Sequence record: PZ386972.1
Length of the DNA stretch: 64,000 nt
Reading direction: 5' to 3' (one strand)
Origin: a phage
Positions 9,134 through 64,000 of this stretch are shown here, one piece after another. Each line of letters starts with the position of its first letter. The first letter of the stretch is position 1. The translations under genes and the position numbers were made by a program. The notes beneath the pieces are model-generated. The model saw only the letters and a program-made list of their open reading frames with translations, did not search any database and was not told the DNA's origin.

Positions 9134-9442
9134 CTAGGCATTCTTGGCTTTGAGTTCTTCAGCTCGTTTCTGTACTTCATGTAAAACCTCAGATTCGCTA
9201 AGAATCTGTGTAAACGCATAGAAAAGCTGTGATGTTGTTTCTAGGGTGTAAGGAAAAGAGAAGCCAGATTTCGTTGGAAACCATTCATCATTAATATCAA
9301 GAAGCCAGTAACGAATACCCATGTATAGATTCCCACGAAATTCAGATACTGTTAATCTTACTTGTTCCCCCTCCTTCTCCCAAAGTATGATGGACTGGTC
9401 ATCAACGTGTCCTTCATAGTTTTGATTTACCTGTTCGCTCAT
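9134..9442 (-). CDS. hypothetical protein (102 aa)
   Basis: ORF track. Confidence 0.5.
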   Translation of the reverse strand: MSEQVNQNYEGHVDDQSIILWEKEGEQVRLTVSEFRGNLYMGIRYWLLDINDEWFPTKSGFSFPYTLETTSQLFYAFTQILSESEVLHEVQKRAEELKAKNA

Positions 9443-9454
9443 TTACATATCCCA

Positions 9455-9482
9455 AATACACAAAAAGCCCCATATAGGGGCT
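9455..9482 (-). terminator. rho-independent terminator (minus strand)
   Basis: Hairpin GCCCCTATATGGGGC followed by TTTTTG on the minus strand. Confidence 0.5.
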
Positions 9483-9492
9483 AATTGGTTTC

Positions 9493-9789
9493 TTATCGGC
9501 CTACTGGAGAAGCACGATCTAACTCTGATTGGAGGCTAGTCACACGACGGACTTTCTCGACAGGAATAAAACGGAAGCTATCATTAGTACGAGAGAAGAC
9601 AAGGATTTCATCATCTTTCGCTTTACGAATACGTTCACGTTTAATACGCTCAGCCAGATATTTATCTTGGGCTGGATCAAATTCCATCGTACCCTGAAGG
9701 TACGTGGTTCCTTTCTGACGAAGTTTCTCGTAATGAAGATAAAACTCACCAAATTTTTCACATTGTGCGATAATTTCAGCTTTGGTCAT
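9493..9789 (-). CDS. hypothetical protein (98 aa)
   Basis: ORF track. Confidence 0.5.
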   Translation of the reverse strand: MTKAEIIAQCEKFGEFYLHYEKLRQKGTTYLQGTMEFDPAQDKYLAERIKRERIRKAKDDEILVFSRTNDSFRFIPVEKVRRVTSLQSELDRASPVGR

Positions 9790-9825
9790 AACTGTGTTCC
9801 TTTTGTTGGTGGATTTATCTAAAAA

Positions 9826-10236
9826 TTACTTAGTGATAGCTCGGATTGCTTCTGCCAGATGAGCAGCCGCTTTACCGGTCAGTTTGTCGATAATCGCATC
9901 ATCCAGAAAATCTGGTGCTAGGCCAGCATCAGAGAATGCTGAACGAAGATCGGCGTGAGCTTGGGCTTTGGAGGTACGAGAACCACCGGAAGCTTTTTCT
10001 CCAGTAGATGCGCTAGATTTAGAAGCAGAGCCAGCAGCTTTCTTGATATATACACCTGCTTTGGTCAGCTTCATACGAAAACCGTTCGGAGTTACACCAT
10101 TTTCCTGAGCAATTTCGCTAACAATTTCCATGCTAACACCCGGACGTTCATCCTCTGGGAATTGCTCCATACGAGCAATGTATTCGGAAGACATTTTTTC
10201 GAACAGTTCATCAGTCCACTGAGTTGGAGTAGTCAT
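9826..10236 (-). CDS. hypothetical protein (136 aa)
   Basis: ORF track. Confidence 0.5.
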   Translation of the reverse strand: MTTPTQWTDELFEKMSSEYIARMEQFPEDERPGVSMEIVSEIAQENGVTPNGFRMKLTKAGVYIKKAAGSASKSSASTGEKASGGSRTSKAQAHADLRSAFSDAGLAPDFLDDAIIDKLTGKAAAHLAEAIRAITK

Positions 10237-10293
10237 ATTTTATATTTCCTTAATTAAGAATTAAACAGAATAGTTCTTTCAAACTATGAGAAT

Positions 10294-10322
10294 ATTATAT
10301 CAAGAATTATAGGATTAAGCAA
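10294..10322 (-). promoter_or_regulatory. early promoter (minus strand)
   Basis: Plus strand ATTATA 10294-10299 and AAGCAA 10317-10322; 17-bp spacer. Confidence 0.55.
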
Positions 10323-10342
10323 CTGAAATTTTTCGGTAACTG

Positions 10343-10630
10343 CTACACATCTAGTTCAACGATCTCCCAATCATCCGCCAATGCTTCCTCTAAGGTTAGA
10401 GATGTGGTTTTCCATGTTGCGTCTTTTATATCGAACTTGGTATATCCATCTTCATTGGGCCACCAGGTAAACTCGACAATATCATTATTATCAACATCTA
10501 CTTTTATAATAGTAGAGTAACAGGTACGAACATCCCAGTTACCCCAGCTATCCCGTTGGAGATATTTTACATCTCCATCTTTAAGCAAATCTGTTAGCTT
10601 ACTCACGGCGTTTTCCTTTCTCTTTATCAA
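10343..10630 (-). CDS. hypothetical protein (95 aa)
   Basis: ORF track. Confidence 0.45.
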   Translation of the reverse strand: MIKRKENAVSKLTDLLKDGDVKYLQRDSWGNWDVRTCYSTIIKVDVDNNDIVEFTWWPNEDGYTKFDIKDATWKTTSLTLEEALADDWEIVELDV

Positions 10631-11303
10631 GTTTCAAGGCGGCCTTAACAGCTTCGTTAATCAACGTAATAATTTCTTCACGAGTCCACTTATATCCTAG
10701 AGATTTTACGTCTACCCCTAACTTTTCCAGATGTTTAACAGAAGCCAGCTCGTAATTCATATAATGAACGTTCTGTTGTTTGCCTTCTGATAGAAGCCAT
10801 ACACGGTAGCAACCAACAGGATTATCCATTGCTTTTTTGATTTCACCGATACACTGGTATCCAGGAACCCAAACAAGCTCACCAACTGCAAATTCTTCTG
10901 CTACAGCATCATCAGGAATAATCGGAGGATTCAATGGATCTACAATATCATTCAAACGAAGTAGAGCACCATAGCGTTCCAGAACAGATTTAACCATTGC
11001 TACAGAACGATAATTACGATCGGCAATCTCTTCAAAAGAATCACCAGATAAATACTGCTCAATAACGTTGGCTAACTCGATGCCTTCAATGAGTGTGCCA
11101 CGTTTCTTTTTCTTCATTTCGGCAACTTGAATCTGGCGGTCTTGCCATTCTTCAATCATCCTTTCCATAGTTGGATTGGATGATACGCCGAGCATTTCAC
11201 ATGCTGCTTTCTTAGTACCACCGTTCTCCAGATGCTCTATAACCTTTTTAAAGACTTCATCCGGGATTTCATGGATATGTTTCTTTCTGCGAGAACCAGC
11301 CAT
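10599..11303 (-). CDS. putative DNA-binding protein (N-terminal HTH-like segment)
   Basis: 234 aa; GGTKKAACEMLGVSSNPTMERMI resembles a helix-turn-helix. Confidence 0.45.
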   Translation of the reverse strand: MAGSRRKKHIHEIPDEVFKKVIEHLENGGTKKAACEMLGVSSNPTMERMIEEWQDRQIQVAEMKKKKRGTLIEGIELANVIEQYLSGDSFEEIADRNYRSVAMVKSVLERYGALLRLNDIVDPLNPPIIPDDAVAEEFAVGELVWVPGYQCIGEIKKAMDNPVGCYRVWLLSEGKQQNVHYMNYELASVKHLEKLGVDVKSLGYKWTREEIITLINEAVKAALKLDKEKGKRRE

Positions 11304-11614: not shown

Positions 11615-14456
11615 CTAGCTCTGCCATTGCTTCATCATGCATATGTTTCTCCTCATCAGTCATAAACTTATATGGAATTGGCATACACTCGATTTTACAA
11701 TAAGTTCTGTACCAGTCTACAATATTCTCCGTGTTCATATCCTTACCAATACCCATCATACCAAGATACATTCTTGCATATTTTGGGTTAGCACTCTGAC
11801 CTGTTTTAAGGAAGAAATCTTTCTTTTTACCTTTCAAAGCTTCTATGAATGGTTTGATAGTGACATTTGAACACTTCTTAATATCCTCCCAGAACATCTC
11901 GTGCATCTTATGAAAGAATGCAGCTCTATCATTCGGTTTATCTTTGATATATTGTTCAACATGCTCAACCGTTACATCTTTAATAGACTCAAGATGATAA
12001 TAGCGAACAAGAAGTAGTTTAGCTTCATACGCATCTGCATGGCGGGGGGCACAATAATCAGGAGTTGAGTACAAAATGGCTTTGATTCGCTCTTCTGTAT
12101 ACTCTTTACCTGCACCTTCGATAGTTCCCCAGCTTTCACTGAAAATATCAATAGTTGCACCCTGATCAAGCAAGTAATAACGTAAAGTACTAGTATAGTT
12201 CCTAGACTCCAGCTCCCTGCGACGTGCGTATAATTGCTGTGCTAACTCCAGCCAACCCTCATCAATGTTATATTGTTCAGAACCTGCGGAAAATCCACTC
12301 GTAGATTTATCAATAAAATAATAAATGTTCTGAGCGCCACGGTCGCGCCTGATTGCTTGAAAACGCATGTTTGGCGCTTGGTTACTAGTTCTAGTAATAA
12401 CGAATACGTTATCAAAATAGTTGAAGTCAACACCACTCGTTACGGATGGACTACATAATAAGCAATCAATTTGTTGGTCAATTAGCTCATTAGTTGTGTA
12501 ATCCAGAATACGTCGAATATCCACATCAGACGTAGAGTTTGAGTGGATTTCCTTAACTAACGCACCCGTATTACGACGCAATGCCATGCCCTTCTCATTC
12601 AGTTCATCCGGACCACAGTCAGATACTAGGATAGATTTCTCACCCATCTCTAGGGAAGTCTGAAGTGCAACCCAAATACTGGATTCATCAGGGAACTCAT
12701 AAGCATGAGCTTTTGACAGCATTTTACGATGATGATTATAAAATGCAACCGGTTTATCAAACTCAATCAAAGAACCATATGCTTCAATTGTTTCTGCACT
12801 AATATCCCCATCAGATAATATAATGATTTTTGCAGTTGCAAGAATATCCCGAAGAACCTGAATGCACTCGCGACGTTGTTTAACAACCGGGGCGAATAAT
12901 AGGTCATTCATTACTGCATCACATTCATCAATAAAGATTGCATCAATTTGACCAATAAAACTCTTGAACTTATGCAAAGAGTGAATAGTTGTGGACATAC
13001 GGTCAATAGCACCACGCTTAAAATTAAGCATATCTACAGACTTATCATATTGTCCTGCGCTAAATTTCTTAGCGTTTGAAGATACCAGCGCTCTAGTATT
13101 TGTAACTGCTAAGAAATTACCTTTAATAACTCCTGAATCTAACCAACGCACAACCGCCGTGGTTTTACCTGTACCTAGACTTGCTTTTACAAAAGTCATA
13201 TAACCTTCTGGCGGTACAGTATTTAATTTCAAAAAGTTATCAGTTTCTAGGGAATTAGTTTCTAGCTTTTTAAGTGGAATACCTTTTAAAACATCAGGTA
13301 TATCACGTTTAGAATTATTAACAAACGCTTTCAGAGCCTGTTTACGACCGTTATTAAAGTAATCTTGAATATTACGACTATTATCTTTAGTTGCAATATA
13401 TTCTGATAAGGCTGGACGGATTTCTTTTTCTAGCCATGCAAAATCAACACCATCCTCTAAAGCTCTGTGATAGAGTTTAGGTATGATACGTAGATACACT
13501 CCATCCTCAGCTTCTTCTAGTTCGCTGATAGTTTCCTCTACTTTATCAGAGGCAGCTTTTTTACCTTTAATTTGATCGAGTAAAGAGTAAAACTCCTCCT
13601 TAAACTCACCTCTAGTTGTTTCATAGTCAACCAGATTATTAGGTAAATTTACTTTAGAACCCTTAACAAATACCAGACGTGAAGCACCCTCCGCCTTAAA
13701 CGGATCTACTATACCATCAGTAAATAACGGATCTGCAAAATAATGGAGCTGTACGGAAGAGTAATAAGCTAAGTCGGCAATATCAAAGCCATACTTTTGT
13801 CTACTACTTTCGTTGATAGATGTAAATAAGAATTTGATTTGACCCTGAGTTACTTTAACATTAGATTCTAGTATTAGGTGCATTCGGATACCTGGTTTTA
13901 GCCCAGCCGAAGACGATGCATGAGCGATAAACCCTGCATCGAGAGGAAACATGTCCTCACTAATACTATTTAACATTCTAATAATATGTCGAGCCATGCC
14001 AACAAGATCAAACTTGTTACAACCACCTGTATCTACAATACCATCCACGTCCATTGCAATTATATGACTTGGATTAGATACATTAAAGTTGCCCTTCTTA
14101 CGCCGCACATTATTTTTAGGTGCAAGACATCGACCTCGTACCGCAACGATATGAGGATCAGACGTTAAACGTCTCATAAGAGGGAGCATTTCTACTAGGG
14201 TTTGAGGATCAACTTCATCAATTACATCAAACTTGAAGGGCATTGAAGCTGGTTTACCTTCAGAATGCTTTGAGGAAAATCTTTTAGCAAAAAGATAGTC
14301 TTCTGCTTTAACTTCTCGCCAAATGCCTGTGGCTAAATCGCGATGAAATCCTGCATGACCTTGTAGGATTGAGAACACAACAATACTCCTGTGTTGGAAA
14401 TGAAATAAGTTTTCTTTAGGACTATTCAGAAAGAATAGAACAACTGTTACTGTCAA
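11589..14456 (-). CDS. large helicase-like protein with Walker A/B motifs, possible origin-binding or replication helicase
   Basis: 955 aa; Walker A SLGTGKTT; Walker B IFIDECD; embedded in the replication gene block. Confidence 0.55.
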   Translation of the reverse strand: MTVTVVLFFLNSPKENLFHFQHRSIVVFSILQGHAGFHRDLATGIWREVKAEDYLFAKRFSSKHSEGKPASMPFKFDVIDEVDPQTLVEMLPLMRRLTSDPHIVAVRGRCLAPKNNVRRKKGNFNVSNPSHIIAMDVDGIVDTGGCNKFDLVGMARHIIRMLNSISEDMFPLDAGFIAHASSSAGLKPGIRMHLILESNVKVTQGQIKFLFTSINESSRQKYGFDIADLAYYSSVQLHYFADPLFTDGIVDPFKAEGASRLVFVKGSKVNLPNNLVDYETTRGEFKEEFYSLLDQIKGKKAASDKVEETISELEEAEDGVYLRIIPKLYHRALEDGVDFAWLEKEIRPALSEYIATKDNSRNIQDYFNNGRKQALKAFVNNSKRDIPDVLKGIPLKKLETNSLETDNFLKLNTVPPEGYMTFVKASLGTGKTTAVVRWLDSGVIKGNFLAVTNTRALVSSNAKKFSAGQYDKSVDMLNFKRGAIDRMSTTIHSLHKFKSFIGQIDAIFIDECDAVMNDLLFAPVVKQRRECIQVLRDILATAKIIILSDGDISAETIEAYGSLIEFDKPVAFYNHHRKMLSKAHAYEFPDESSIWVALQTSLEMGEKSILVSDCGPDELNEKGMALRRNTGALVKEIHSNSTSDVDIRRILDYTTNELIDQQIDCLLCSPSVTSGVDFNYFDNVFVITRTSNQAPNMRFQAIRRDRGAQNIYYFIDKSTSGFSAGSEQYNIDEGWLELAQQLYARRRELESRNYTSTLRYYLLDQGATIDIFSESWGTIEGAGKEYTEERIKAILYSTPDYCAPRHADAYEAKLLLVRYYHLESIKDVTVEHVEQYIKDKPNDRAAFFHKMHEMFWEDIKKCSNVTIKPFIEALKGKKKDFFLKTGQSANPKYARMYLGMMGIGKDMNTENIVDWYRTYCKIECMPIPYKFMTDEEKHMHDEAMAELGARNDSEE

Positions 14457-17962: not shown

Positions 17963-19837
17963 TTATTTAGCTCGAATATCCTGATGTTTCACCCTACCCA
18001 TAACTTCATGTTGTTTGCCGGGGTTAAATGGACGAGCACCCGGATTTCCAAGATACCCACAAACTCGACGAGTTACTTCAAGAGTTTCTGGGTCATGATT
18101 ACCACAGATAGGGCACTTAAATCCATCTTCGGATGCTATTGTTTCACCTAAGAATCCACATTTACCACAAGAATCTACTGGAGTATTAATACCGAAGTAA
18201 TGAACCTTACTAGCAGCATAATTAATAACCCATTCGAGTGCATCTGGGAATCGTTTCATATCCGGTAGTTCTACATAGGAAATACACCCACCAGAAGCAA
18301 TCGGAGTAAAGTTAGATTCATAATCAAATTTCACGTTAGGAGCAACTTTACGTTCTACATCAAGGTGATGCGAGTTAGTATAGTATCCTTTGGACAGAAT
18401 ATCTTCATGCTCCGGGAAATATTCACGATCTAGACGACAAAAACGGTCACATAGGGACTCTGATGGTGTAGCATACAGGCTATAACCTAACTTAGTTTCT
18501 TCCTTCTTCTGATCTACCCTATCCCGCATGTACTGCAGTACACGCTGAACAAACTTGATGCAGGTCTCGGACATTGTGTCTATATCTTTGCCAAACATGA
18601 ACTGTAGCATTTCATGGCAACCAATATACCCTAGAGATACAGAAGCACGGTTATAGAAATGATCGAATACGTATTCATCAGGCTCCAAGCGCAGTCCAAA
18701 GGCTCCTGACATATAGAGGATGGGTGCAGCTTTAGCTTGAATGTATTTTAAGCGATCAACTCTCCACTCCAATGCTTTTAACGCTGTATCCACACGTAGC
18801 TCAAGCAAATCAAAGAATAGGTCAATATTTCCTTCAGCTTCGATAGCAATTCTAGGCAAGTTTACAGAAACAACACCTAAGTTATTACGACCGGCAGTTT
18901 CACCATCTTCTGTAGCAGCTAGGAATGAACGGCAGCCCATAGAAACTTTGTAGTCTCCAGTAACTTCTACAACTTTGTCATAGCTGATATAATCTGGATA
19001 CATACGTTCAGCAGTACATTTCATAGCTAACTTCTTGATGTCATAATTAACATCTCCTGGTTTCATATTTACGCCATCACGAAGCACAAATACCAGTTTC
19101 GGGAAGATAGCTGTACGTTTATTGATACCTAAACCATCCATGCGTACTTTCAGTATTGCTTTCTGTACTAGACGTGCTTCCCAAGAAGTTCCTAGACCAA
19201 AACCAAAGGTAATAAATGGACTCTGACCATTAGAGTTGAACATCGTATTGATTTCATACTCTAGACCCTGACAAGCATCATAGACTTCTTTTTCAGTCAT
19301 CTCCGTAGCCATTACTGATGCTTTGGCTTCATCCTTAGTCCAACGTTTTGCAAAGGCATGATTTTTGTCATAGGATTTACGAACATAAGGAGCTAATACC
19401 TCATCTAATCGGTCTACAGAAGTACCACCATACTGATGGGAGCTAACCTGTGTGATAATCTGAGCTGTAATAGCCGCCGCAGTAGTAATAGAGTTTGGAG
19501 TACTAATTTCAGCATTACCAACCTTCATACCATTCTTCAACATATCTTCCAGAGCTACCAGACAACAATTAGTCATGCCTAATGCAGCATAATCAGCATC
19601 ATGGAAATGAATATCCCCAATCATATGAGCATTTCGAATCTGAATTGGCATTTCTTCTAGAATCAGATACTTACTCAATTCACCTGCAAGCATATCCCTC
19701 TGTGTAGGGAAACGTTCTGAGGGTTTATTGGCATTATTAAACAGCAGCTCTTCATCTGCTGACCCTTCGATAATCTCTTTGCAGTTTCTAATTAACGCCT
19801 GCATTTCTTTATACTTTAGTTCTTCATTGCGATTCAT
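17963..19837 (-). CDS. nrdD: anaerobic ribonucleoside-triphosphate reductase (class III, glycyl radical)
   Basis: 624 aa; C-terminal zinc ribbon CGKCGF...CPICG and glycyl-radical motif RRVCGYLG. Confidence 0.85.
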   Translation of the reverse strand: MNRNEELKYKEMQALIRNCKEIIEGSADEELLFNNANKPSERFPTQRDMLAGELSKYLILEEMPIQIRNAHMIGDIHFHDADYAALGMTNCCLVALEDMLKNGMKVGNAEISTPNSITTAAAITAQIITQVSSHQYGGTSVDRLDEVLAPYVRKSYDKNHAFAKRWTKDEAKASVMATEMTEKEVYDACQGLEYEINTMFNSNGQSPFITFGFGLGTSWEARLVQKAILKVRMDGLGINKRTAIFPKLVFVLRDGVNMKPGDVNYDIKKLAMKCTAERMYPDYISYDKVVEVTGDYKVSMGCRSFLAATEDGETAGRNNLGVVSVNLPRIAIEAEGNIDLFFDLLELRVDTALKALEWRVDRLKYIQAKAAPILYMSGAFGLRLEPDEYVFDHFYNRASVSLGYIGCHEMLQFMFGKDIDTMSETCIKFVQRVLQYMRDRVDQKKEETKLGYSLYATPSESLCDRFCRLDREYFPEHEDILSKGYYTNSHHLDVERKVAPNVKFDYESNFTPIASGGCISYVELPDMKRFPDALEWVINYAASKVHYFGINTPVDSCGKCGFLGETIASEDGFKCPICGNHDPETLEVTRRVCGYLGNPGARPFNPGKQHEVMGRVKHQDIRAK

Positions 19838-19866: not shown

Positions 19867-19895
19867 ATTATAACTCATTCGAGGGCGGATGTCAA
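19867..19895 (-). promoter_or_regulatory. consensus sigma70-type promoter for nrdD (TTGACA, 17 bp, TATAAT)
   Basis: Plus strand ATTATA 19867-19872 and TGTCAA 19890-19895. Confidence 0.6.
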
Positions 19896-59279: not shown

Positions 59280-59884
59280 TGACTTTTAATGCACAACAAT
59301 CTATTCAAGTAGTACCGGATCATGAATTGAATACGTGGGATTATAGCTTTAAAGATTTAACTGCTACTGTACAATTCAAATCTATGAAGCTAACATTTGC
59401 ACACGCTGACATTAGCGCCTGTAAAGATCTTGAAAGTAAGCTCGAAGATGCTCGTAAGATTTTTGGTACGGCTCGCATCCCCGCTGATAACCTGATTAAT
59501 GCACTGATCGATGCAGGGTACAAACTCGTGAAGACCGAGGTGAACCGCCCTAGTACTCCAGTGACTATTAGAGATCCGTGGCAATCAGGGTCAATCGCAC
59601 TGTTAAATAAATCATCGGATTTGCACAATATTCCATGCGGTGGTACGCTGTCATCTAACCAATCCTATCGAGTTGGGGAAGATTATGGCCCTTCTGTACA
59701 GTTGAAACATACTCAAGAAGCTTTTGAATCTGATATGCGAAGCGTAGCACCTGCGGATGCTGGAGTTTCTAGGAGTTCTGTTTGTACTATTCATTTTAAT
59801 AATCCTGGTAAACATGGAAGTTTAGAGGATGCTATTATGGAGGCGTTGGGAGCTGCTATTAACGAGAGTAAAAAAGATCAATAA
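59279..59884 (+). CDS. hypothetical protein (201 aa)
   Basis: ORF track. Confidence 0.45.
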   Translation: MTFNAQQSIQVVPDHELNTWDYSFKDLTATVQFKSMKLTFAHADISACKDLESKLEDARKIFGTARIPADNLINALIDAGYKLVKTEVNRPSTPVTIRDPWQSGSIALLNKSSDLHNIPCGGTLSSNQSYRVGEDYGPSVQLKHTQEAFESDMRSVAPADAGVSRSSVCTIHFNNPGKHGSLEDAIMEALGAAINESKKDQ

Positions 59885-60341: not shown

Positions 60342-61073
60342 ATGAGTATTAGTGAGAATTTAAAGACTATTATTAAGCTGGCTAAGAATGCAGACGGCAA
60401 ATGTGTTTCTGAACTAACTCCTGATGAAGCTCATGCAGTAGCATTCTGTTCTGAGTTTCATCCCGCAGCTTATACAGAAGCTGGAATTGTTAAATATAAT
60501 AAAGAAGAAAAATTCGTAACTCTATCTCCTTCTTATATTGCAATGAGAAAGATCATCAATTCTGTTGGTGATAAGATTGTAGGGTTCAAGGCAGATTCAT
60601 ATCATGTCTTTGCAGATCAGGAACTTCCAGTATTTAAAGAAGGAAATGTTAGAGTTGCACTAGAATTATATCCCGAGGAAAAGTTCATTCCACCTAAACG
60701 TTGTGAATATGATCATCTTCCTAGACTCCAAAGAAAAGATACTGGATTCCCTTATACAAAAGATGAAGTGTTGCTAGGGATTGCTTCTACGATTGCGCAG
60801 GTTCATCTATGTCTCGAAAAGAACCTAGAGATGCCATTAATCTTACAGTCTGCACATAAAGCAATGTTAAATGACTGGGATCAATTCTTTAAGATTATAG
60901 GAGCTGTCGGATTAGCACGTTTACTTCCTGCATTTGAGAACTCTGAAGTATTTGGCGAAGGTTCTTTCGGAACTGTAGATTATGATGCGCTAAAATCCCC
61001 ACACTCCTATCTTGCAACTTTTCTCTTCATGGTCTCGAAGGGTATCGTTCTCAAATACAAGCGGAAGGAATAA
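60342..61073 (+). CDS. hypothetical protein (243 aa)
   Basis: ORF track; last plus-strand gene before the repeat region. Confidence 0.5.
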   Translation: MSISENLKTIIKLAKNADGKCVSELTPDEAHAVAFCSEFHPAAYTEAGIVKYNKEEKFVTLSPSYIAMRKIINSVGDKIVGFKADSYHVFADQELPVFKEGNVRVALELYPEEKFIPPKRCEYDHLPRLQRKDTGFPYTKDEVLLGIASTIAQVHLCLEKNLEMPLILQSAHKAMLNDWDQFFKIIGAVGLARLLPAFENSEVFGEGSFGTVDYDALKSPHSYLATFLFMVSKGIVLKYKRKE

Positions 61074-61090
61074 ACGTTAACAAAATCTTC

Positions 61091-61120
61091 TTGACAACTC
61101 ATTAAGGTACATGTTATAAT
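61091..61120 (+). promoter_or_regulatory. consensus sigma70-type promoter (TTGACA, 18 bp, TATAAT) pointing into the repeat region
   Basis: -35 at 61091-61096, -10 at 61115-61120; no plus-strand ORF downstream. Confidence 0.5.
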
Positions 61121-61156
61121 AATCTCATAGATTAAAAACAACTTCTGTTTTTAGCT

Positions 61157-61438
61157 CTAGGCAACAAGATTATTGCTATCCCAACTCGAAGAGTACACCA
61201 GAGCCCCTGGCGCTAGGATGTATTCTGCAGCAGTTTTCACGGGATTAGCATACAGATCTTGAACGCCTAGAGCAGCAGACTTACGAGATTGGGGGATCTT
61301 ATATTTAAAATAAAAGTAAAACTTTTGACCACATAATTTACATTCAAGATGATACACCTGTTGCCGCTCATCTGCTAGGATGGCACAACACTTTCCTAGA
61401 AACTCCAGAGTTCTCACGAAATAATCACGAGATACCAC
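61157..61438 (-). CDS. hypothetical protein (93 aa)
   Basis: ORF track only; no promoter or RBS support found. Confidence 0.3.
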   Translation of the reverse strand: MVSRDYFVRTLEFLGKCCAILADERQQVYHLECKLCGQKFYFYFKYKIPQSRKSAALGVQDLYANPVKTAAEYILAPGALVYSSSWDSNNLVA

Positions 61439-61446
61439 TCTTTCTA

Positions 61447-61518
61447 GGGCGGTTCTCCTAAGTTTCTAGGAACATATACTAGGCGGTTTAATACAGGGCG
61501 GTTATTGGGAGGGCGGTT
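61447..61518. repeat. four direct copies of GGGCGGTT
   Basis: Copies at 61447, 61482 (GGCGGTT), 61496 and 61511. Confidence 0.7.
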
Positions 61519-61636
61519 ATTTCTAGGAGACATTTTTTGAAAACACATTTCCAGAAATTACTGTCGGATTTGCACATTGTGTTTCTAGAAATTTATGGTC
61601 GGATTTGCACAATCGCCTAAGTTTTTAGGAACATAT
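61456..61636. repeat. 22-bp direct repeat CCTAAGTTT(C/T)TAGGAACATATA, two copies
   Basis: Copies at 61456-61477 and 61615-61636, one mismatch. Confidence 0.7.
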
Positions 61637-62161
61637 AATCTCTTGAAAATGGCAGCATTATTTCGGGCCGAAGGCCCATGATTGCCTGAGTTTTTAGAGC
61701 CACAAGAATTTTCACTTGTCAAGCTATTTTGCCCCATTTTGCTAATAAAATTTTACTTTATCTGCACTTATCTCAAATTAACCCAAATCTTCTCAACTCT
61801 TCTCCAAAATCCCCGCAAATCAGGTGCTCCGCACCAAACATGCGCCCCTCCCGCAGTTCCCCCAAATTTCTCTCGCTCTCTCAACTTCTCCCCAAACTCA
61901 CACAATCACACACCCTCTAATCGAAGTCACAAAAATCTTGTCGGATTCGCACATCTTAATCCTAGAAAAACCATGTCGGATTTGCACATACCCCACAGGA
62001 TTCGAACGCAGTTCGTGATTGCTGGAGTTTTTAGGAAAATTCATTGTCGGATTTGCACACTATAAAAATTTTTCGGGTCGGATTTGCACACTACCAAAAA
62101 TTGTCGGATTTGCACATACACGCCCCCGCGTAATCCATGGGGGCAAATGTCGGTTTTGCAC
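61563..62161. repeat. eight direct copies of the 15-mer TGTCGGATTTGCACA, irregularly spaced
   Basis: Copies at 61563, 61597, 61939, 61974, 62044, 62075, 62101 and 62147; variants GGTCGG, GATTCG, GGTTTTG. Confidence 0.8.
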
Positions 62162-62191: not shown

Positions 62192-62345
62192 GAATGCAAA
62201 TAAAAATGAGAATCGTTTGCATTTAAAAAGTGAAATGAGAATGATAATGATTCGCATTTAGAAAGTGAAATGATTCTCATTTAGAAAGTGGAATGATTCT
62301 CATTTAGATAGTGAAATACAAATGATAATGATTCGCATTTAAGAA
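62192..62345. repeat. array of AATGAGAAT / ATTCTCATT and AATGATAATGATT (Fur-box-like) palindromic repeats
   Basis: AATGATAATGATTCGCATTT twice (62242, 62320); GAAATGATTCTCATTTAGA twice; inverted partner AATGAGAATCG at 62205. Confidence 0.7.
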
Positions 62346-62372: not shown

Positions 62373-62381
62373 TTATCCACA
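62373..62381. promoter_or_regulatory. perfect DnaA box TTATCCACA
   Basis: Exact 9-mer match. Confidence 0.6.
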
Positions 62382-62445
62382 GACTTATTAACAGCACGAT
62401 TTGACTTGACAGAATCCTAGCCATTTTGAGGCGTTATTAACAGAC

Positions 62446-62454
62446 TTATCCACA
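62446..62454. promoter_or_regulatory. perfect DnaA box TTATCCACA (second copy, 73 bp from the first)
   Basis: Exact 9-mer match within repeated CAGACTTAT context. Confidence 0.6.
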
Positions 62455-62482: not shown

Positions 62483-62847
62483 TTCCTACGCAGTGAATAA
62501 TTCTAATATAGCGTTAAAACGTCCTAGATCGCATTCTAACGCGTTTAATTTTGGTGGGGATACTAAAACAAGGGCAAAATTGGAGGAGGCTTGAAAATTA
62601 GTTAGCTCGCTAACGATCACACAAGGCGACACGTAACATCCTAATCATTAGCAGGCTAACCATCGCGGGCGCGGTCAAATAAGAATGATTCTCATTTGAG
62701 AATTGGGGCACTTCCTGATAGTTGCGCCCCGTGATTATTACAGTAGTGGGCAACCGTTACGCTTTGCCCATTCCCGCCACTCATCTTGATGTCTAGACTT
62801 GCGACGGCGTACTAAAAACCGTTTATACCAGTGATTAAACCATCGTT

Positions 62848-63081
62848 TCATAAATCCTCCTCCGGTAGTCGATGCGTGATTTTTTCCTCCTCCCCATAGG
62901 AATCCGCCAAATGCTGATAATAACCCTCGTGATCATAAATCACTTTATCATACTCGCCACGCTCGACCGCTTGCCGATTCTCTGGCGTATCGGGCACGTA
63001 AAAAACGTCTACCATCGTAGTAGTTTTGGTCACAATAATTTTATTGCTCATAGTAACTCCTAGTAAATATATTTTTGCCAA
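62848..63081 (-). CDS. hypothetical protein (77 aa)
   Basis: ORF track; GGAGG RBS on the minus strand upstream of ATG. Confidence 0.4.
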   Translation of the reverse strand: MAKIYLLGVTMSNKIIVTKTTTMVDVFYVPDTPENRQAVERGEYDKVIYDHEGYYQHLADSYGEEEKITHRLPEEDL

Positions 63082-63151
63082 TAGTGGCGAACGTTATCGC
63101 CACCAGCGGAATCATTAGCTGCCTCAACATTACCAACGAAAATATATAATT

Positions 63152-63511
63152 TCATTGCGCCACCTTTCGAAACGCTGTTTCAATACTATCAGCCGTGGAT
63201 TGAATATACGCGCCTTTCATTATCAGGCGCTCGGTGCATACCTTGCGGAAAATATTAATAAAATCCTCTTCATTTTCTGCAATCAATGCTTCCCCCATGA
63301 CCTGAATATCACAAGATGCAAAGGTCAAAAATTGAAATGCTAGTTCACGGGCAACGACCGCATTGATTTTATAATGCGCCTTGCCCTCATAAATATTAAT
63401 AACGCCCTTGTAAGCTGGGGAAAGCTGATTTAAGTAATTTGCTAGTAATGCCGGACGGCAATTAGCAACAAAGCGATTGCCTTCATAAATTATCATTTGC
63501 ATAGCTCCCAA
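63152..63511 (-). CDS. hypothetical protein (119 aa)
   Basis: ORF track; GGAGCTATGCAA start context. Confidence 0.45.
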   Translation of the reverse strand: MGAMQMIIYEGNRFVANCRPALLANYLNQLSPAYKGVINIYEGKAHYKINAVVARELAFQFLTFASCDIQVMGEALIAENEEDFINIFRKVCTERLIMKGAYIQSTADSIETAFRKVAQ

Positions 63512-63738
63512 ATAGTTCCGCCGATGATCATTAGCTGACTAATAATTATCAGAATAAAACCAATTGAAGGCAGGACGCCCCAATATTGGAACGCCCTTTT
63601 AATTTGTTGAATCATTTGTTAGCCTCCCAATCAGATAGCCAGATAAAAGCATAAAAATCCCCAATGAAAGGGGATCATTTTTAAATAAGGTGGCGGTAAA
63701 ACCGCCAACCATTGCAAGGATAATAATAATAACGCTTT

Positions 63739-63951
63739 TCATAGTACCCCACGAAAGGCCGCGTAAAAGGTGGCAAAGTGTTTAACCGTTTCAGCGATAA
63801 CGTTGCCGCGCTTATCAAATTTCTTTTCTGTAACACGGAAGGCGTTTTTATTCCGCGCTACATATTCGATTTTACAATCAGGACGCTCAAACGTGTTTAC
63901 ATCCACCAGCTTAAAGCCTTTCGAACGTGCAAGGGAAACGTTGCGAATCAT
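63739..63951 (-). CDS. hypothetical protein (70 aa)
   Basis: ORF track; AGGAGAATAAAAAATG start context. Confidence 0.4.
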   Translation of the reverse strand: MIRNVSLARSKGFKLVDVNTFERPDCKIEYVARNKNAFRVTEKKFDKRGNVIAETVKHFATFYAAFRGVL

Positions 63952-64000
63952 TTTTTATTCTCCTTTACTAGTCATGCAGCCCAGCAGATAAGAAAATGCA

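What the first reader, a model, noticed from the sequence alone, without database searches (positions are those of the whole stretch)
61091..61438. Consensus promoter firing antisense to the only ORF at the cluster boundary
TTGACA-18-TATAAT (61091-61120) is the best sigma70 match in the window, yet no plus-strand ORF follows. Transcription would run antisense across the minus-strand ORF 61157..61438 and into the repeat region. It may make a non-coding RNA, or transcription through the repeats may itself be functional.
Basis: seen in the sequence. Interest (0 to 1): 0.45.

Follow-up and report, generated by a model that had tools for sequence, protein, structure and literature searches.

The report
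Orphan promoter drives conserved phage RNA
A near-perfect bacterial promoter that sits between the early genes and the terminal repeat of this T5-like phage is conserved across the phage family and most likely makes a highly folded non-coding RNA that no annotation, RNA database or paper I could search describes; the gene it seemed to oppose is not real.

Summary
The window is a T5-like phage (Tequintavirus), reverse-complemented relative to the standard T5 map. The promoter TTGACA-18-TATAAT with a TGn extended -10 (61091-61120, +) is real. It lies in unique DNA, 18 bp after the stop of the last early gene and about 570 bp before the inner edge of the left terminal repeat (61696|61697). About 45 related loci in three genera (Tequintavirus, Sugarlandvirus, Myunavirus) carry the same promoter at the same place. 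The hexamers and TG are kept while spacers and upstream genes are replaced.

The transcribed DNA always encodes the same shape: a 5' hairpin, a 77-150 nt rod-like hairpin and a G-run. The rod sequence falls into at least nine unalignable types. Rod folding z-scores are -3.4 to -7.7. Within-type single substitutions in stems gave 11 G.U and 0 A.C on the promoter strand, which points to selection on that transcript.

In BF23-type phages a strong intrinsic terminator follows the rod, giving an RNA of about 165 nt. In this window that hairpin is weak, so read-through toward the repeats is plausible.

The 93-aa minus-strand ORF is not conserved and has no family match. No Rfam family matches, and the T5 reference annotates other promoters but not this one. 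Function is unknown. No transcript data were examined.

The parts
61074..61090 (+). A-rich stretch upstream of the -35 (cgttaacaaaatcttc), possibly UP-element-like
   Evidence: Similar A-rich context in most relatives. Inference only.
61091..61120 (+). Sigma70 promoter: -35 TTGACA (61091-96), 18-nt spacer, TG (61112-13), -10 TATAAT (61115-20)
   Evidence: 12/12 match with TG. Two such sites in the window against 0.10 expected. Present in all 40 T5-like loci first examined, 242-276 nt upstream of the invariant core, with 20 sequence variants in which the hexamers and TG are kept and the spacers are unrelated. Also present in Sugarlandvirus and Myunavirus.
61127..61127 (+). Predicted transcription start (A, 7 nt after the -10)
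   Evidence: Inferred from promoter geometry. A covariance model built from other phage types matches exactly 61127-61298. That agreement is partly by construction, because the seed sequences started at the predicted start.
61133..61153 (+). 5' hairpin (AAAAACA-ACUUC-UGUUUUU)
   Evidence: Predicted. Compensatory changes between types at three pairs (AU to CG, CG to UA, AU to UA). An equivalent hairpin is present in T5, Spivey and My1.
61154..61273 (+). 120-nt rod-like hairpin closed by GCUCUAGGC/GCCUAGAGC
   Evidence: MFE -52.4 kcal/mol, z = -7.15. At least nine unalignable sequence types in relatives all fold as a rod.
61286..61299 (+). G-run element (AGAU-UGGGGG-AUCU). It is the weak counterpart of the intrinsic terminator seen in BF23-type phages
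   Evidence: A G-run (GGGGG, or GGGG in two loci, Elw and K32PH164C1) is present in every type, including Sugarlandvirus and My1. Strong terminator in the BF23/L015 type, but only -4 kcal/mol here.
61296..61342 (+). AT-rich segment (about 83% A+T by my count from the sequence read), found in two sequence versions among relatives
   Evidence: Alignments.
61343..61412 (.). 70-nt core that is almost invariant in Tequintavirus; contains hairpin UGUUGCC...GGCACAACA (61359-61390)
   Evidence: 90% identity or more in all Tequintavirus loci, while the flanks are replaced. Absent from Sugarlandvirus and My1. Hairpin dG about -11 to -13 kcal/mol, followed by CUUUCUUCU in some types. The pattern of changes is not that of a coding sequence (my reading of the alignment).
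61157..61438 (-). 93-aa mechanical ORF, judged spurious
   Evidence: Only 24 of 302 tblastn-positive phage records cover 80% or more of it. The rest match only the part that overlies the conserved nucleotide core. No Pfam hit above cut-off and no PHROG. It shrinks to 50, 36 or 30 aa, or is absent, in other types. Most records do not annotate it.
61447..61519 (+). Four GGGCGGTT / GGCGGTT repeats
   Evidence: Read directly from the sequence. Conserved in Sugarlandvirus and My1.
61559..61618 (+). Two copies of TGTCGGATTTGCACA (T5 'direct repeat D') on the unique side of the repeat boundary
61696..61697 (.). Inner boundary of the left terminal repeat (unique DNA ...CCTGAGTTTTTA | GAGCCACA... repeat)
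   Evidence: The T5, SPC35, BF23 and Elw annotations all place the repeat end at this same sequence. The chee24 record places it at a different sequence, further into the repeat.
61700..61950 (+). C-rich, G-poor tract (GC skew -0.63). For an untranslated + strand transcript it resembles a Rho-loading site
   Evidence: Composition profile. Similar tracts are seen in Spivey and My1. The Rho interpretation is inference.

Best explanation
This is an independent, non-coding transcription unit. It is conserved at the junction between the early genes and the left terminal repeat in T5-like phages (Demerecviridae).

Host sigma70 RNA polymerase should start at about 61127 from an extended -10 consensus promoter. 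That promoter needs no phage factor. Because it lies just beyond the first-step-transfer DNA, it becomes available only when second-step DNA transfer begins.

The RNA folds into a 5' hairpin and a 120-nt rod, followed by a G-run. In some relatives the RNA ends there at an intrinsic terminator, giving about 165 nt. In this phage that terminator is degenerate. Part of the transcription therefore probably continues through the invariant 70-nt core and the GGGCGGTT and TGTCGGATTTGCACA repeats. It would probably stop at the C-rich tract just inside the repeat.

I take the functional product to be the folded RNA itself, acting through its shape: a stable, abundant double-stranded rod that binds a protein or is cut by RNase III. 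I do not think it acts through base-pairing or through a peptide.

Shown: the promoter, its conservation, the conserved fold, the strand bias of substitutions and the absence of a conserved ORF. Inferred: that the RNA is made, where it ends, and what it does.
For: Promoter. It is a 12/12 match with TG and is rare by chance. The same promoter sits at the same distance from the core in 40 of 40 loci. The hexamers and TG are kept across 20 variants and unrelated spacers, and at least three to five unrelated upstream genes precede it.

Independent unit. In T5 and Spivey a terminator hairpin for the early operon lies just upstream of the promoter.

Depth of conservation. The same layout is found in Sugarlandvirus and in My1, which belongs to a different subfamily.

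Fold. The whole transcript has z = -4.9. The rods of nine types have z = -3.4 to -7.7. The promoter-strand RNA is more stable than its complement in 31 of 31 unique sequences and in 8 of 9 isolated rods.

Substitutions. Within types, 11 single changes in stems give G.U on the + strand and none gives A.C. The mirror analysis on the other strand gives 10 A.C and 1 G.U. The 5' hairpin shows compensatory changes.

Bounded unit. BF23/L015-type phages have promoter, rod and a 14-bp terminator with a U-tract and no ORF.

Not coding. No ORF is conserved on either strand.

Single copy. A covariance model built from other types hits the window only at 61127-61298 on the + strand.
Against: No transcript data were examined, so the start, the end, the abundance and the timing are all predicted.

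The rod is an imperfect palindrome, so the complementary strand also folds well (z = -2.0 to -6.5). A DNA-level role is therefore not excluded.

The 11:0 wobble bias polarises each change by assuming the Watson-Crick state is ancestral. A strand-asymmetric mutation bias at a heavily transcribed site could inflate it.

Formal covariation across types could not be computed, because the rods cannot be aligned.

The unit stays next to the repeat boundary and its repeats across subfamilies. That fits a role in cis at least as well as a diffusible RNA.

This window's version lacks a clear 3' end.
Confidence: 0.65

Rival explanations
1. The act of transcription, or an RNA-DNA hybrid, works in cis on the neighbouring DNA, and the RNA is not a diffusible product. 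One version: the promoter marks or opens the site where the terminal repeat is cut or duplicated during packaging, as phage T7 needs transcription near its right end. Another version: the RNA primes replication through an R-loop, as in T4 oriF/oriG or ColE1 RNA II (promoter, structured RNA, G-run, AT-rich unwinding segment, then repeats and DnaA boxes).
For: The unit stays next to the repeat boundary, the GGGCGGTT repeats and the TGTCGGATTTGCACA repeats in three genera and two subfamilies. It points toward the boundary, which is 570 nt away. A G-run is followed by a 47-nt segment that is 83% A+T. Paired DnaA boxes lie at 62373-62454 (Davison, bioRxiv 10.1101/866236). T5 encodes D10, a relative of T4 UvsW, and UvsW unwinds origin R-loops in T4 (PMC5180179). 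This window has no efficient terminator before the repeats.
Against: BF23-type phages and My1 have strong terminators before the boundary, so transcription into the repeat is not universal. Davison states that T5 replication origins were mapped near the centre of the genome. Beyond the G-run, the RNA made across the downstream tract would be C-rich, which disfavours R-loops. The DnaA boxes are more than 1 kb away. The T7 and ColE1 parallels come from my own knowledge and were not tested here.
Confidence: 0.2
2. The promoter supplies convergent, antisense transcription. It would either help shut off the rightward pre-early operon of the terminal repeat once second-step DNA arrives, or shield the 3' ends of the early genes from read-through out of that operon.
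For: The orientation is opposite to the pre-early genes at 62848-64000. The promoter enters the cell only with second-step DNA. This window has no good terminator.
Against: The pre-early genes start more than 1.7 kb downstream, beyond a Rho-loading-like C-rich tract and many hairpins. The terminators in BF23-type phages and My1 stop the RNA long before that. This model does not explain why the rod fold is conserved. As I recall the T5 genetics literature, pre-early shut-off depends on protein A1; I did not check this here.
Confidence: 0.07
3. The long palindrome works as DNA, for example as a cruciform or a protein-binding site at the genome end, and the promoter is incidental to it.
For: Both strands fold significantly. 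The neighbourhood is full of repeats that look like protein-binding sites.
Against: The promoter hexamers are selectively conserved at a fixed distance. Stem substitutions are 11:0 in favour of pairs that hold only in the + strand. The + strand is more stable in 31 of 31 sequences. The terminator in BF23-type phages makes sense only for an RNA.
Confidence: 0.05
4. The minus-strand ORF 61157..61438 is a real small gene, and the promoter makes an antisense regulator of it.
For: The ORF is 93 aa with a CC...CxxC motif and a weak sub-threshold Zn-ribbon hit (E = 0.075). One close relative annotates a shorter version.
Against: The ORF is absent or truncated in most types. Only 24 of 302 records cover it. 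There is no family match. Its conserved N-terminal part coincides with a nucleotide-invariant block, and the few changes in that block are not biased toward synonymous sites (my reading of the alignment).
Confidence: 0.03

Closest known systems
Strong sigma70 promoters of phage T5 (PN25, PH207, PD/E20, PJ5 and others; Gentz and Bujard 1985, cited from memory and through PMC7472727)
   Same: Recognised by host sigma70 polymerase, with near-consensus hexamers in an AT-rich context.
   Different: This one has no gene downstream. It is not among the promoters annotated in the T5 reference AY587007, which does annotate T5P1-T5P5 nearby. Its discriminator (AATCTCA) lacks the ATATT motif that Klimuk et al. 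report for T5 early promoters.
T5 'Repeat Region 3' / injection stop signal (Wang 2005; Davison, bioRxiv 10.1101/866236)
   Same: Immediately adjacent. The transcript runs into its direct repeats D and toward its DnaA boxes.
   Different: Repeat Region 3 is defined as T5 9194-10409. The promoter (T5 10771-10799, complement) and the rod lie 200-390 bp beyond it. That paper does not mention a promoter, a transcript or a terminator.
Stand-alone phage non-coding RNAs with their own promoter and terminator (lambda OOP, P22 sar, P4 CI RNA, phi29 pRNA; from my own knowledge)
   Same: A short untranslated unit made by host polymerase and strongly structured. phi29 pRNA is likewise encoded next to a genome end.
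   Different: There is no sequence or Rfam similarity. No antisense target was found in the window. The rod sequence is hypervariable, unlike seed-based regulators.
RNase III-type long hairpins of phage early transcripts (T7 R sites; from my own knowledge)
   Same: Imperfect hairpin of about 45-55 bp with small internal loops, in an early transcript, with the shape conserved rather than the sequence.
   Different: It has its own promoter, is not placed between genes, and cleavage has not been tested.
Transcription-dependent origins and packaging sites (T4 oriF/oriG, ColE1 RNA II, T7 phiOR/pac; from my own knowledge)
   Same: A promoter followed by structured RNA, a G-run and an AT-rich segment, close to a genome end and to repeat arrays.
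   Different: There is no evidence for a hybrid, a primer or an effect on packaging. The terminators in some relatives argue against transcription reaching the boundary.

Membership tests
Sigma70 promoter, extended -10 class | -35 close to TTGACA, -10 close to TATAAT, spacer 16-18 nt, TG one base upstream of the -10 | tested here: met
   12/12 match, 18-nt spacer, TG present.
Sigma70 promoter, extended -10 class | The promoter elements are conserved more than their surroundings | tested here: met
   20 variants in 40 loci keep TTGACA/TTGCAT/TTGACG and TGTTATAAT/TGTTATCAT, while the spacers are unrelated. Also seen in two further genera.
Sigma70 promoter, extended -10 class | A transcript starts there in vivo or in vitro | not testable with these tools
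Terminator-bounded small RNA gene | Promoter and intrinsic terminator on the same strand with no ORF between them | tested here: inconclusive
   Met in BF23/L015-type phages (14-bp stem plus U-tract) and, further downstream, in My1. Not met in this window, where the best hairpin is -4 kcal/mol.
Any described RNA family (Rfam 15, including 6S RNA, Y-like RNAs and known phage RNAs) | A match reaching the family's gathering score | tested here: not met
   No hit in the unit at E up to 10. All hits elsewhere in the region are far below gathering score.
6S-type RNA polymerase mimic | Rod of about 180 nt with a large central open bubble | tested here: not met
   The predicted rods have only small internal loops and no central bubble.
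Protein-coding gene (minus ORF 61157..61438) | Reading frame conserved in relatives; family membership | tested here: not met
R-loop / RNA-primed origin (T4 oriF/oriG, ColE1) | Promoter followed by an AT-rich unwinding element | tested here: met
   Promoter at 61091-61120; a segment that is 83% A+T at 61296-61342, right after a G-run.
R-loop / RNA-primed origin (T4 oriF/oriG, ColE1) | Persistent RNA-DNA hybrid and DNA synthesis starting there | not testable with these tools
   Needs replication mapping.
T5 injection stop signal / Repeat Region 3 | Lies within T5 9194-10409 and consists of the named repeats and palindromes | tested here: not met
   The promoter and rod map to T5 (AY587007) about 10600-10800, outside the defined region.

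The most novel reading that the evidence does not exclude
The promoter, rod and G-run unit is a cis-acting part of the machinery that works at the terminal-repeat boundary of T5-like phages. Transcription or its RNA would be needed to cut or duplicate the 10-kb repeat during packaging, to start replication there, or to reset the injection-stop region after second-step transfer. That would give a handle on how T5 genome ends and two-step injection work.
Probability: 0.2. Interest if true: 0.8.

Novelty: new member of a known kind. Interest (0 to 1): 0.55.

Why it matters
T5 has been a model phage for 70 years. Its promoters are laboratory tools, and the region next to this unit (the injection stop signal and the edge of the terminal repeat) is still unexplained.

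A promoter-driven structured RNA kept at that exact junction across two subfamilies is a concrete, easily mutated element. It could bear on two-step DNA injection, on how the terminal repeat is formed, or on early host takeover. It is missing from current annotations, including the T5 reference, which lists other promoters.

It also corrects an annotation problem: some genome records call a spurious ORF here.

Tried and rejected
- Rfam scans at permissive thresholds on the window and on four relatives: nothing relevant.
- tRNA/tmRNA search: none.
- DNA similarity to plasmids and to all complete E. coli genomes: none, so the unit is neither host-derived nor plasmid-like.
- Search for an antisense target of the transcript elsewhere in the window: only copies of the local CTAG-containing repeat motif.
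- Pfam and PHROG on the 93-aa ORF: nothing above threshold.
- Small + strand ORFs: a 31-39 aa frame exists in some types, but it is missing in this window and in T5, and it carries stops and frameshifts in others. Rejected.
- A minus-strand promoter inside the invariant core: I looked by eye and found no convincing match.
- Structure-aware alignment (mafft-qinsi) was not installed, and my first dinucleotide-shuffle script timed out. MAFFT cannot align the rods across types, so RNAalifold covariation is informative only for the 5' hairpin.
- A covariance model built from one group of types finds this window and the SPC35-like type (loci L010, L035 and L042). It does not find the T5, Sugarlandvirus or My1 versions.
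- The Vibrio phage pVp-1 record does not start at its terminal repeat, so I did not analyse it.
- Literature searches, including searches for the promoter sequence itself, found no description of this promoter or RNA. Davison 2015, Wang 2005, Heusterspreute 1987 and Gentz and Bujard 1985 are not in the library, so an older description cannot be excluded.

Full report
**Context.** The window matches T5-like phages at 93-95% identity over the region (Salmonella phages PK7, NBSal003 and L6jm). It has no plasmid or E. coli chromosome match. Compared with annotated relatives, the window is the reverse complement of the standard T5 map.
- The + strand genes ending at 61073 are the last early genes.
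- The repeat-rich DNA that follows is the inner end of the left terminal repeat, with the 'injection stop signal'.
- Four independent annotations (T5, SPC35, BF23, Elw) put the repeat boundary at the same sequence...CCTGAGTTTTTA|GAGCCACA..., which is window 61696|61697. A fifth record, chee24, places its boundary at a different sequence, further into the repeat.
- The finding therefore lies in unique DNA between the last early gene and the repeat. It points at the repeat.

**The observation.** TTGACA, an 18-nt spacer and TATAAT are at 61091-61120 on the + strand, with TG at 61112-61113. An exact consensus with a 16-18 nt spacer occurs twice in the window against 0.10 expected. The other copy, 19895..19867 on the minus strand, has a 17-nt spacer and drives a 624-aa gene with a good ribosome-binding site. 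So 'best in the window' is a tie. What is unusual here is the lack of any gene. The 93-aa minus ORF exists.

**Promoter conservation.** I collected the homologous interval from GenBank phages, IMG/VR and metagenomes, giving 40 loci and 31 unique sequences.
- Every one has TTGACA, TTGCAT or TTGACG, a 17-18 nt spacer, and TGTTATAAT or TGTTATCAT.
- The promoter lies 242-276 nt upstream of an invariant motif.
- There are 20 promoter variants. The hexamers and the TG are kept, the spacers are unrelated, and the gene upstream belongs to several unrelated families.
- T5 itself has TTGACA-17-TATCAT with TG at AY587007 10799-10771 on the complement strand. That record annotates putative promoters T5P1-T5P5 nearby, but nothing at this position.

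The same arrangement appears in more distant relatives:
- Klebsiella Sugarlandvirus phages have it, preceded in Spivey by a clear terminator for the early operon.
- Pectobacterium phage My1, from a different subfamily, has TTGACA-17-TAAAAT with TG.

**The transcribed region.** The predicted RNA from this window (61127-61425) folds with z = -4.9. The architecture is the same everywhere:
- a small 5' hairpin;
- one long rod-like hairpin (120 nt here, 61154-61273; 77-150 nt in others);
- a G-run (five Gs in nearly all types, four in two loci);
- an AT-rich stretch.

The rod sequence falls into at least nine types that cannot be aligned with one another. Each folds as a rod, with z between -3.4 and -7.7.

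**Which strand is under selection.**
- The promoter-strand RNA is more stable than its complement in all 31 unique sequences and in 8 of 9 isolated rods.
- Among closely related variants, single substitutions in stems produce G.U on the promoter strand 11 times and A.C never. Analysed on the other strand, the same changes read as 10 A.C and 1 G.U.
- The 5' hairpin shows compensatory double changes.

This indicates selection on the + strand transcript. Two caveats apply. Each change was polarised by assuming the Watson-Crick state is ancestral. A transcription-linked mutation bias could contribute.

**Where the RNA ends.**
- In BF23-type phages a 14-bp hairpin with a U-tract directly follows the rod (dG about -17 kcal/mol). 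That gives a promoter-to-terminator unit of about 165 nt with no ORF.
- The SPC35-like type (locus L010), locus L019 and T5 have intermediate hairpins at the same place.
- This window has only AGAU-UGGGGG-AUCU, at about -4 kcal/mol.
- The next candidates are the hairpin inside the invariant core (61359-61390) and a 250-nt C-rich, G-poor tract that begins at the repeat boundary (GC skew -0.63). For an untranslated RNA that tract looks like a Rho-loading site.
- In My1 a strong terminator lies about 410-440 nt downstream of the predicted start, before the boundary.

So read-through into the repeats is plausible for this phage, but it is not a conserved property.

**The ORF.** By tblastn, only 24 of 302 positive phage records cover 80% or more of the 93-aa product. 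The rest match only the residues that overlie the conserved nucleotide core. There is no Pfam or PHROG family. In other rod types the frame shrinks to 50, 36 or 30 aa, or is absent. No alternative ORF is shared by all types. The few changes in the invariant core are not biased toward synonymous sites (my reading of the alignment). The ORF is a by-product of the sequence.

**Comparison with what is known.** Rfam has no matching family and there is no tRNA. Davison's analysis of the injection-stop region defines Repeat Region 3 as T5 9194-10409 and never mentions a promoter, transcript or terminator. The present unit lies just beyond that region. Papers on T5 and BF23 transcription and annotation do not describe it, and the promoter sequences occur in no held paper. 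Several older key papers are not in the library, so prior description cannot be fully excluded.

**Interpretation.** The best-supported reading is a conserved, promoter-driven, structured non-coding RNA, with the ORF spurious. How it acts is open.
- The shape is conserved while the sequence turns over, and there is a stabilising 5' hairpin. This suggests an abundant RNA that works through its double-stranded rod, by protein binding or RNase III processing.
- The unit is strictly linked to the repeat boundary and to the GGGCGGTT and TGTCGGATTTGCACA repeats across subfamilies. This keeps a cis role at the genome end, in packaging or replication, as a serious rival.
- An antisense role against the pre-early genes is less likely, given the distance and the terminators in relatives.

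Noticed in passing
window 61457-61469, 61616-61628, 61685-61697 (+); related or inverted copies at 61392-61408, 62022-62038 and 59760-59774: The motif CCT(A/G)(A/G)GTTT(C/T)TAG occurs three times in 240 bp, and its third copy ends exactly at the terminal-repeat boundary (61696|61697). Inverted copies straddle the boundary, and one lies inside an early gene. It is a candidate recognition site for whatever forms the genome end.
   Followed up: partly
window 61700-61950: A C-rich, G-poor tract (GC skew about -0.63) starts right at the repeat boundary. Similar tracts are seen at the same place in Klebsiella phage Spivey and Pectobacterium phage My1.
   Followed up: partly
window 61343-61412: This 70-nt block is 90% or more identical in all Tequintavirus loci examined, while the DNA on both sides is swapped between types. 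It is absent from Sugarlandvirus and My1. It could be an RNA hairpin or terminator, or a protein-binding site.
   Followed up: partly
window 61447-61519; L040 2846-2883; L045 about 13010-13040 (-): GGGCGGTT repeats (four copies here) are conserved on the unique side of the repeat boundary across two subfamilies of Demerecviridae, which suggests a conserved DNA-binding protein.
   Followed up: no
window 62240-62333 and 62684-62696: Five of the window's seven matches to AATGATAATNATT, which I recall as the core of the E. coli Fur box, cluster in the 'direct repeat C' part of the injection-stop region (1.3 expected in the whole window). This is notable because, as I recall, T5-like phages use iron-regulated receptors such as FhuA.
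   Followed up: partly
window 19895..19867 (-): The second perfect TTGACA-17-TATAAT promoter in the window. It is followed by a Shine-Dalgarno sequence and a 624-aa ORF (17963..19837), which I take by eye, untested, to be an anaerobic ribonucleotide reductase. This is an ordinary promoter-gene pair.
   Followed up: yes
window 60342..61073 (+) and equivalents in relatives: The last early gene before the promoter belongs to at least three unrelated families in different T5-like phages (here PHROG 8993, function unknown). Its type mostly travels together with the rod type, as if gene plus RNA were exchanged as one block.
   Followed up: partly
window 62373-62393 and 62434-62454: There are two pairs of DnaA-box-like 9-mers spaced 3 bp apart (TTATCCACA / TTATTAACA), as Davison describes for all T5-like phages.
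   Followed up: no
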